DNA of 64,000 nucleotides from Escherichia coli O127:H6 str. E2348/69 (GTDB lineage: Bacteria; Pseudomonadota; Gammaproteobacteria; Enterobacterales; Enterobacteriaceae). The translations under genes and the position numbers were made by a program. How positions within the stretch are numbered: position 1 is the stretch's first letter; every line of letters starts with the position of its first letter. Shown in pieces: positions 62,646 to 62,981 of this stretch. The notes below the pieces were generated by a model. It searched no databases and was not told the origin of the DNA. It was given only the letters and a program-made list of their open reading frames with translations. The stretch lies in assembly GCF_000026545.1 (NCBI RefSeq), contig NC_011601.1. One strand, 5' to 3'.

Positions 62646-62981
62646 TTACGAATGATCATTCTGTTTAGTCTTCATGAGAAAATCCCGAATCTTTGCCAAG
62701 TTTGAATTTTCGGGGATTGAATCCATGTACGGATCACGCTCAAACACTAATTGCTCAGATTCAACGAAAGCCTGCCACTCTACTGGGTCTAGCTCAAATC
62801 CCATTGCTGTCATATCACTTTCATCTTCCCCCTCGATCCAGTGGACTAAATAAAACAATTCATCATCAGGAGAATCATCCTCACCATCAACAATATCAAC
62901 ATCGGTTACAGTGATACGTAGGGTGGGATCGATTTTTGAGACATAAATTCCTAACTGTGGTATAGGGGGAATATTGTTCAT
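62646..62981 (-). CDS. highly acidic small protein of unknown function
   Basis: 111 aa; AAGGAG RBS 6 nt upstream; runs of Asp/Glu (DGEDDSPDDE, EGEDESD); AT-rich. Confidence 0.6.
   Translation of the reverse strand: MNNIPPIPQLGIYVSKIDPTLRITVTDVDIVDGEDDSPDDELFYLVHWIEGEDESDMTAMGFELDPVEWQAFVESEQLVFERDPYMDSIPENSNLAKIRDFLMKTKQNDHS

What the first reader, a model, noticed from the sequence alone, without database searches (positions are those of the whole stretch)
62646..62981. Highly acidic 111-aa protein divergent from the PRTase-like gene
It has a strong RBS, is very Asp/Glu-rich and sits in AT-rich cargo. Such small acidic proteins in phage accessory regions are often DNA mimics or anti-defence factors (the Ocr/ArdA precedent is established; applying it here is inference). 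It could instead be an immunity or partner protein for the neighbouring locus.
Basis: inference. Interest (0 to 1): 0.5.

Follow-up and report, generated by a model that had tools for sequence, protein, structure and literature searches.

The report
Orphan acidic prophage moron protein (DUF8087)
This is a real, very acidic 111-residue protein of unknown function carried as a self-contained gene beside the packaging (cos) site of a P2-like prophage of E. coli; it is not tied to the neighbouring ShosTA defence genes, and nothing yet shows whether it helps or hinders phage defence.

Summary
The ORF at 62646-62981 (minus strand) is real. It has an AAGGAG ribosome-binding site, a net charge of -19 and 40% GC, and dN/dS is 0.1-0.2 against relatives. 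The window is E. coli E2348/69, and the protein is identical to WP_001059831.1 (Pfam DUF8087, phrog_17127), which nobody has characterised.

It lies in a 186/Fels-2-type P2-like prophage, between DinI and the cos site (63361-63379). This is the slot and orientation of P2's old-tin operon. The "PRTase-like gene" is ShosT of a ShosTA (DprA+PRTase) defence system. It sits on the other side of cos, in a separate slot.

The identical acidic protein also sits opposite retron Ec86 (BL21, E. coli C), GmrSD (E. coli W) and ParA+SIR2. The same ShosA protein occurs without it. The partner/immunity reading is therefore refuted.

Relatives are all stand-alone proteins of about 40-150 aa:
- in the cI-int lysogeny operon of other P2-like prophages;
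- next to Mokosh-type helicases in chromosomal islands;
- in decayed prophage remnants.

None occurs in 50,697 deposited phage genomes.

The predicted fold is an SH3/chromo-like barrel with two acidic loops, unlike Ocr or ArdA. My best reading is a lysogen-expressed acidic binder or decoy acting in conflicts between mobile elements. Whether it acts in defence or counter-defence is unresolved.

The parts
62646..62981 (-). CDS of the 111-aa acidic protein. It is identical to WP_001059831.1 and belongs to Pfam DUF8087 (PF26332) and phrog_17127.
62987..62992 (-). Shine-Dalgarno sequence AAGGAG, 5 nt upstream of the ATG
   Evidence: read directly from the sequence
63017..63047 (-). Best sigma-70-like promoter candidate: TTCACA-N19-TATTTT, with the palindrome ACAG-N8-CTGT (63029-63044) in the spacer. 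The spacing is not optimal and the site is unverified.
   Evidence: The stock scan found nothing on this strand.
62610..63155 (-). Mobile single-gene cassette: the ORF plus about 175 nt upstream and about 36 nt downstream. It is shared at 84-86% identity with an E. coli chromosomal island and a Morganella island.
62464..63234 (.). Cargo segment relative to an 'empty-site' P2-like phage (vB_EcoM-813R9), in which DinI is followed almost directly by cos
62463..62490 (.). G+C-rich hairpin (CCCCCA...TGGGGG) between the converging DinI-like gene and the acidic gene. It is a candidate bidirectional terminator.
   Evidence: read directly from the sequence; function inferred
63293..63310 (+). Terminator-like hairpin just before cos, conserved with the empty-site phage. 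It corresponds by position to the annotated t95b of phage 186.
63361..63379 (+). cos cohesive-end site GGCGTGGCGGGGATACGAG. It matches 15 of 19 bases of the 186 cos, and the flank CATAAAGCGGGCA is also conserved. It separates the acidic-gene slot from the ShosTA slot.
63510..64000 (+). Not part of the feature, shown as the neighbour. This is the ShosT-like PRTase ORF (191 aa, runs to 64085), followed outside the window by ShosA/DprA (64075-65049) and then the portal gene.

Best explanation
The gene is an autonomous single-gene moron of a P2-like prophage. It sits in the slot between DinI and cos, in the same position and orientation as P2's lysogenic-conversion operon old-tin.

It encodes a cytoplasmic, non-enzymatic protein. 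The predicted fold is a small SH3/chromo-like beta-barrel carrying two flexible poly-Asp/Glu loops and a C-terminal helix.

I infer that it is made in the lysogen and works stoichiometrically. It would bind and block the basic, nucleic-acid-binding surface of one specific target protein, acting as an acidic decoy or nucleic-acid mimic. The target would belong to a competing phage or mobile element, or to a system that acts on them. It is functionally independent of the ShosTA system across cos.

Shown: the gene is real and under purifying selection, its acidity is conserved, the cassette is autonomous, its position is as described, and it is uncoupled from its neighbours.

Inferred: expression in the lysogen, the binder/decoy mechanism, and a role in conflict between mobile elements. 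Whether it acts in exclusion or counter-defence is not resolved. I lean slightly towards a function that benefits the lysogen.
For: - Real gene: dN/dS is 0.13-0.21 among the solitary copies.
- Conserved acidity: net charge is -8 to -22 across 33 homologues, down to 32% identity.
- No enzymatic or known domain: no match in Pfam, NCBIfam, PADLOC or PDB.
- Always stand-alone: every homologue found is a single-domain protein of about 40-150 aa.
- Autonomous cassette: about 175 nt of upstream sequence travel with the ORF across three unrelated contexts.
- Slot and orientation: the same as P2 old-tin, whose transcript starts about 150 bp from cosR. Phage 186 has orf97 in this slot, which 'blocks 186 infection'.
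- Lysogeny operon: in Klebsiella aerogenes, Enterobacter kobei and metagenomic P2-like prophages the gene lies inside the cI-int operon, and in most copies it overlaps the int start codon.
- Recognised hotspots: both the gpA-portal and the int-primase regions are published defence hotspots.
- Retained in decay: it survives in defective or decayed prophages, in BL21 and in the Pantoea-type remnants next to pgsA-uvrC.
- Defence neighbours in islands: it lies next to Mokosh type II MkoC (Morganella) and near a TmtA/MkoA-like helicase in an E. coli island.
- Independence from neighbours.
Against: - There is no direct evidence of expression. The only promoter candidate has a 19-nt spacer and the stock scan found none.
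- No binding partner is known.
- The model is of moderate confidence and the structural matches are weak and generic.
- A linker-fused dimer model was inconclusive (pTM 0.49).
- Location in a hotspot is circumstantial. Anti-defence genes and unrelated morons also occur there.
- A 111-aa soluble protein with no enzymatic domain is atypical for known defence systems (my own knowledge).
Confidence: 0.4

Rival explanations
1. Counter-defence protein. An acidic DNA mimic would be made early after infection or on induction. It would inhibit a host nuclease-type defence such as restriction-modification, in the way Ocr, ArdA or acidic anti-CRISPRs do.
For: The protein is small, strongly acidic and non-enzymatic, and the acidity is conserved. 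The gene and its upstream region lie on one side of cos, so it could be transcribed from linear DNA before circularisation. In Morganella it lies in an island that also carries an ArdB/KlcA-type 'Antirestrict' gene. A few anti-RM and anti-CRISPR genes are known in P2-like prophages.
Against: There is no match to the Ocr or ArdA Pfam families, nor to any other. The predicted beta-barrel is unlike Ocr or ArdA. It is absent from all 50,697 deposited phage genomes. The only 'plasmid' hit is a circular P2-like phage record. Relatives are co-transcribed with cI and int in the lysogeny operon and persist in prophage remnants. From my own knowledge, E. coli B carries the gene yet restricts well through EcoBI, so a constitutively expressed anti-type-I function is unlikely.
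Confidence: 0.2
2. Regulatory binder for the element itself or for host chromatin. It could be an antirepressor-like or DinI/Arn-like modulator that sequesters a DNA-binding regulator such as a repressor, integrase, H-NS or RecA.
For: An SH3-topology acidic DNA mimic that sequesters a repressor's recognition helix exists: CarS (PMC2926617). In several P2-like prophages the gene overlaps the int start codon. The cargo is AT-rich.
Confidence: 0.15
3. One half of a two-gene module with the tail-anchored Flk_N membrane protein seen upstream in other P2-like prophages. The E. coli copy would then be an orphan, for example an orphan immunity or neutraliser.
For: The order cI - Flk_N protein (about 210 aa, C-terminal TM) - DUF8087 - int recurs in at least four diverged lineages, with 10-26 nt gaps between the Flk_N gene and the DUF8087 gene. 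Three further pairs share contig lengths in the database listings. Xenorhabdus shows faint traces of a degraded Flk_N gene upstream.
Against: The Flk_N gene occurs in the same operon without DUF8087 in Erwinia pyrifoliae, and in Hafnia with a different 242-aa gene in that slot. DUF8087 occurs without Flk_N in E. coli and Morganella, and those copies remain under purifying selection. No Flk_N remnant exists in the window.
Confidence: 0.1
4. Dedicated partner, antitoxin or immunity protein of the neighbouring ShosTA (PRTase+DprA) locus.
For: The two are adjacent and divergently oriented in this genome.
Against: cos lies between them. The identical protein is paired with four other systems. Only 8 genomes carry both. 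The same ShosA protein occurs without it. The DprA+PRTase system was listed and tested as a two-gene system and protected against T7 and lambda.
Confidence: 0.02

Closest known systems
P2 old-tin operon and 186 orf97 (cos-proximal lysogenic-conversion and exclusion genes of P2-like phages)
   Same: Same genomic slot: the last cargo before cosR, downstream of gpA/DinI. Same leftward orientation as old-tin, with the start of the gene a few hundred bp from cos. It lies in the hotspot described by Rousset et al. 2022.
   Different: There is no sequence or domain similarity. Old is an ATPase-nuclease, and Tin (253 aa) and orf97 (243 aa) are larger and unrelated. No exclusion phenotype has been tested for this gene.
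Ocr (T7 gp0.3) and ArdA DNA-mimic anti-restriction proteins
   Same: Small size, extreme negative charge, no enzymatic domain, and carriage on a mobile element.
   Different: There is no Pfam or PDB sequence match. The predicted fold is an SH3/chromo-like barrel with flexible acidic loops, not the Ocr or ArdA fold (the fold comparison rests on my own knowledge). It is found in prophage lysogeny regions and islands, not in virulent phages or plasmid leading regions.
CarS antirepressor of Myxococcus xanthus (SH3-topology operator-DNA mimic)
   Same: A small acidic protein with an SH3-like beta-barrel that could block a DNA-recognition surface (PMC2926617). It is the best precedent for how this fold could act as a nucleic-acid mimic.
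   Different: There is no detectable sequence relationship, and CarS is not among the top structural matches. The taxon and genomic context are unrelated. The resemblance is an analogy only.
Pfam DUF8087 (PF26332) / PHROG phrog_17127
   Same: The protein is a full-length member: phrog_17127 at 2e-70 over 1-111 of 111. RefSeq names the identical protein as DUF8087, and all homologues carry PF26332.
   Different: Nothing differs, but neither family has an assigned function, and no paper mentions it.

Membership tests
DUF8087 (PF26332) / phrog_17127 | Full-length match to the family profile | tested here: met
   phrog_17127 at E 2e-70 over residues 1-111 of a 111-position profile. A 98%-identical cluster and all other homologues carry PF26332. 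RefSeq labels the identical WP_001059831.1 as DUF8087. The Pfam-A copy available here lacks this family.
Ocr / ArdA anti-restriction DNA mimics | Sequence membership of the Ocr or ArdA Pfam families | tested here: not met
   No Pfam-A match even at E<=10. No PDB sequence match with either the single sequence or the profile.
Ocr / ArdA anti-restriction DNA mimics | Elongated, rigid dimer displaying carboxylates with the spacing of DNA phosphates | tested here: inconclusive
Ocr / ArdA anti-restriction DNA mimics | Inhibits type I restriction-modification enzymes | not testable with these tools
   Needs plating assays or in-vitro binding assays.
ShosTA (DprA-PRTase) defence system, as a third component | Consistent co-occurrence with ShosT and ShosA | tested here: not met
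   The PRTase segment is present in 8 E. coli genomes, against about 130 genomes with the identical cassette. Other systems sit opposite the same protein. ShosA WP_001324531 occurs without it.
P2-type lysogenic-conversion moron (old/tin-like) | Non-essential cargo with its own expression signals in the cos-proximal variable slot | tested here: met
   An empty-site phage exists. The position and orientation match old-tin. A conserved upstream segment travels with the ORF. The promoter itself is only a weak consensus match.
P2-type lysogenic-conversion moron (old/tin-like) | Expressed from the prophage and excludes other phages | not testable with these tools
   No expression or plating data could be obtained, and no paper mentions the protein.
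CarS-like SH3 DNA mimic | SH3-like five-stranded barrel with an acidic face that binds a repressor's recognition helix | tested here: inconclusive

The most novel reading that the evidence does not exclude
DUF8087 would be the founding member of a new class of stand-alone effectors in phage-phage or phage-host conflict. It would be an SH3/chromo-like acidic decoy, expressed from prophages, that alone either excludes superinfecting phages or disarms a defence system by mimicking nucleic acid on one specific target. It is already present, unnoticed, in the laboratory strains BL21, B, C and W, next to retron Ec86.
Probability: 0.3. Interest if true: 0.6.

Novelty: already known. Interest (0 to 1): 0.35.

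Why it matters
The gene lies in the best-validated defence hotspot of P2-like prophages. An identical copy is present in standard laboratory strains: BL21, other E. coli B strains, C and W. There it sits directly across cos from retron Ec86 or GmrSD. Even so, it has never been characterised and appears only as 'hypothetical' in published hotspot tables.

If it proves to be a one-gene exclusion or counter-defence factor, it would add a new fold to the small set of known nucleic-acid-mimic proteins. It could also be a hidden variable in phage experiments done in these strains.

If it has no such role, it is simply one more small prophage moron. A practical by-product of this work is that cos divides the gpA-portal hotspot into two slots that exchange cargo independently.

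Tried and rejected
- Pfam-A, NCBIfam, PADLOC and PDB sequence searches, with both the single sequence and the family profile, gave nothing beyond phrog_17127.
- The linker-fused homodimer AF2 model was inconclusive.
- I looked for an Flk_N partner or a remnant of one in the window and found none. Pairing is not obligatory elsewhere.
- The conserved upstream segment has no Rfam match and no unusual RNA stability (z = -0.41). It has no LexA box and no Ogr-type TGT-N12-ACA site.
- The 40-aa upstream ORF (63119-63241) is not conserved, because Morganella has an in-frame stop there.
- The 899-aa hit P0069 is a spurious match to a repeat protein.
- Literature searches for DUF8087 and WP_001059831 returned nothing.
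- I could not establish which end of P2-type DNA enters the cell first. The one search I tried failed, so I make no argument from entry order.

Full report
**1. Observation**

The ORF at 62646-62981 on the minus strand is present exactly as described. It has an ATG start and encodes 111 aa. AAGGAG lies 5 nt upstream of the ATG.

The protein has 26 Asp+Glu against 7 Lys+Arg, a net charge of -19 and a pI of 4.05. Its GC content is 40%, against 53% for the adjacent gpA gene. Among the 94 ORFs of 90 aa or more in the window it is the extreme outlier in charge: -0.17 per residue, against -0.05 for the next.

It is a real gene. Homologues down to 32% identity keep both the length class and the negative charge (net -8 to -22). 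Nei-Gojobori dN/dS between copies is 0.09-0.30 wherever dS could be estimated, including between copies that have no partner gene nearby.

**2. Where it is**

The window is E. coli O127:H6 E2348/69. The stretch matches NZ_LT827011.1 at 862460-864000 with 100% identity.

The gene lies in a 186/Fels-2-type P2-like prophage. The gene order is:
- int
- KAP NTPase
- CI-like protein
- cI
- cII
- fil
- Dam
- gpA (59452-61866)
- a 62-aa protein
- DinI-like (62220-62453)
- the acidic gene
- an unannotated stretch
- DprA
- portal
- terminase

The protein is identical to WP_001059831.1, which newer RefSeq annotation calls 'DUF8087 domain-containing protein'. It matches phrog_17127 over its full length at 2e-70.

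The sequence GGCGTGGCGGGGATACGAG at 63361-63379, together with its left flank, is homologous to the annotated cos of phage 186. It is conserved in a related phage. The acidic gene is therefore the last gene before the right cohesive end. This is the slot of 186 orf97 and of the P2 old-tin operon. It has the same leftward orientation as old-tin, whose mRNA starts about 150 bp from cosR.

**3. The neighbour**

The 'PRTase-like gene' is a 191-aa ORF running from 63510 to 64085. It overlaps by 11 nt the DprA gene, which lies outside the window. PADLOC assigns the two to ShosT (3.7e-14) and ShosA (2.8e-70).

Rousset et al. 2022 validated a DprA+PRTase pair from this very hotspot as a defence against T7 and lambda (PMC9122126). 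That system sits between cos and the portal gene, on the other side of cos.

**4. Coupling test**

In 5,426 complete E. coli genomes the cassette occurs in 213 genomes, 129 records at 99% identity or better. Only 8 genomes also carry the PRTase segment.

The identical protein faces different systems in different strains:
- a retron of the St85 family, which I take to be Ec86, in BL21 and E. coli C;
- GmrSD in E. coli W and strain 1409;
- ParA+SIR2 in strain 2014C-3307.

Rousset's Table S5A lists it as 'hypothetical', alongside several different reverse transcriptases and an AAA_15/21 protein. The same table shows the same ShosA accession with a KAP NTPase in place of this gene.

A related phage has an empty slot in which DinI is followed by cos. 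This delimits the cargo to about 62464-63234. Homology on the right ends about 18 bp past cos. cos therefore splits the gpA-portal hotspot into two slots that exchange cargo independently. The reading of the gene as a partner or immunity protein of ShosTA is refuted.

**5. The family elsewhere**

The family is small. It comprises 61-80 clusters at 90% identity among 5.8 billion proteins, and 26 clusters at 50% identity. The named members are almost all Enterobacterales. Every member is a stand-alone protein of about 40-150 aa, and none is fused to another domain.

It occurs in five kinds of context.

(i) The E. coli slot next to cos, as in this window.

(ii) The lysogeny operon of other P2-like prophages, in the order cI, a tail-anchored Flk_N protein, DUF8087, int. 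The genes are tightly packed, and in most copies the DUF8087 gene overlaps the int start codon.

(iii) Chromosomal islands. In Morganella it lies next to a full-length Mokosh type II MkoC. In 81 E. coli records it lies near a 1589-aa TmtA/MkoA-like helicase.

(iv) Near a filamentous prophage in Xenorhabdus.

(v) As the sole remnant next to pgsA-uvrC in Pantoea-type genomes. This is the neighbourhood where the Klebsiella and Enterobacter P2-like prophages are integrated.

The Flk_N gene also occurs without DUF8087, so the two are separable.

The solitary cassette, about 62610-63155, is shared at 84-86% identity among the E. coli prophage, the E. coli island and Morganella. Its proximal 51 nt derive from the in-operon form.

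The family is absent from 50,697 deposited phage genomes. Its only 'plasmid' hit is a circular P2-like phage record.

**6. What the protein looks like**

The AF2 model (pLDDT 75, pTM 0.60) has:
- five strands;
- a helix at residues 66-76;
- a short helix at residues 84-87;
- a C-terminal helix at residues 94-110.

The acidic loop at 31-40 is the least confident part of the core.

The invariant residues are P8, G11, Y13 and W69. The acidic loops vary in length but are always acidic. A linker-fused dimer model was inconclusive. No catalytic motif or known domain was found.

**7. Interpretation**

Several things are shown. The gene is an autonomous, selected, single-gene moron. It encodes a conserved, highly acidic small barrel. 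It sits in slots that are recognised defence hotspots of P2-like prophages. It is uncoupled from ShosTA.

The rest is inferred. Relatives are co-transcribed with cI and int, the E. coli copy mirrors old-tin, and copies survive in decayed prophages. From this I judge that the protein is most likely made in lysogens. I think it acts as a stoichiometric acidic binder or decoy on one specific basic, nucleic-acid-binding target.

Whether the outcome is exclusion of other phages or neutralisation of a defence cannot be decided here.

The classical Ocr/ArdA picture is disfavoured for three reasons: the fold differs, the family is absent from virulent phages and plasmids, and it sits in lysogeny operons. 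A CarS-like SH3 DNA mimic (PMC2926617) shows that such a fold can act by mimicry.

**8. Novelty and score**

The protein and its family are already catalogued (DUF8087, phrog_17127) but uncharacterised, and no paper mentions them. I rate it 'already known' as an object and of moderate interest (0.35). It is rare, and it is easily testable in BL21, C and W. It could turn out to be a new type of stand-alone conflict effector, which I put at a probability of about 0.3.

Noticed in passing
window 63510-64000 (the ORF continues to 64085 in L001 at 10051-10626): The ShosT-like PRTase ORF (191 aa, PADLOC ShosT 3.7e-14) is not annotated in either RefSeq record of E2348/69. Only the overlapping DprA/ShosA gene is annotated, so annotation-based tools would see the ShosTA system as incomplete.
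   Followed up: partly
window 63293-63379: The prophage cos site (63361-63379) and a conserved terminator-like hairpin (63293-63310) lie inside what has been treated as a single gpA-portal hotspot. Cargo to the left and right of cos is exchanged independently.
   Followed up: yes
window 53585-56051 (minus strand): Between int and cI the same prophage carries a KAP-family P-loop NTPase (505 aa; PADLOC candidate system PDC-S20, 5e-78) and a second, 307-aa 'CI-like' protein. This is probably another defence cargo, in the int-primase hotspot.
   Followed up: partly
L004 7343-7990; L013 4341-4976; L003 318-947; L016 506-1135; L033 and L035 at 4001-4630: P2-like prophages of Klebsiella, Enterobacter, Erwinia and Hafnia encode a protein of about 210 aa between cI and int. 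It has an Flk_N domain (PF27202, phrog_5825) and a C-terminal transmembrane anchor. Its function is unknown, and the slot between it and int is itself variable: DUF8087, a 242-aa protein, or nothing.
   Followed up: partly
window 62021-62453: The 62-aa protein (phrog_698) and the 77-aa DinI-like protein occupy the place of the single Tum antirepressor/DinI gene of phage 186. They look like a split or two-gene version of that SOS module.
   Followed up: no
L021 (BL21) 6047-8903; L028 (E. coli C): In BL21 and E. coli C the well-studied retron (St85 family, which I take to be Ec86) sits between cos and the portal gene of the same type of P2-like prophage. The identical DUF8087 gene lies just across cos. 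In BL21 the prophage is defective, with truncated cII and gpA.
   Followed up: partly
L023/L024 5001-5294; L025 5001-5309: In Pantoea-type genomes a diverged DUF8087 gene is the only recognisable leftover next to pgsA-uvrC-uvrY. This is the locus where the Klebsiella and Enterobacter P2-like prophages are integrated. It suggests the gene is retained after the prophage decays.
   Followed up: partly
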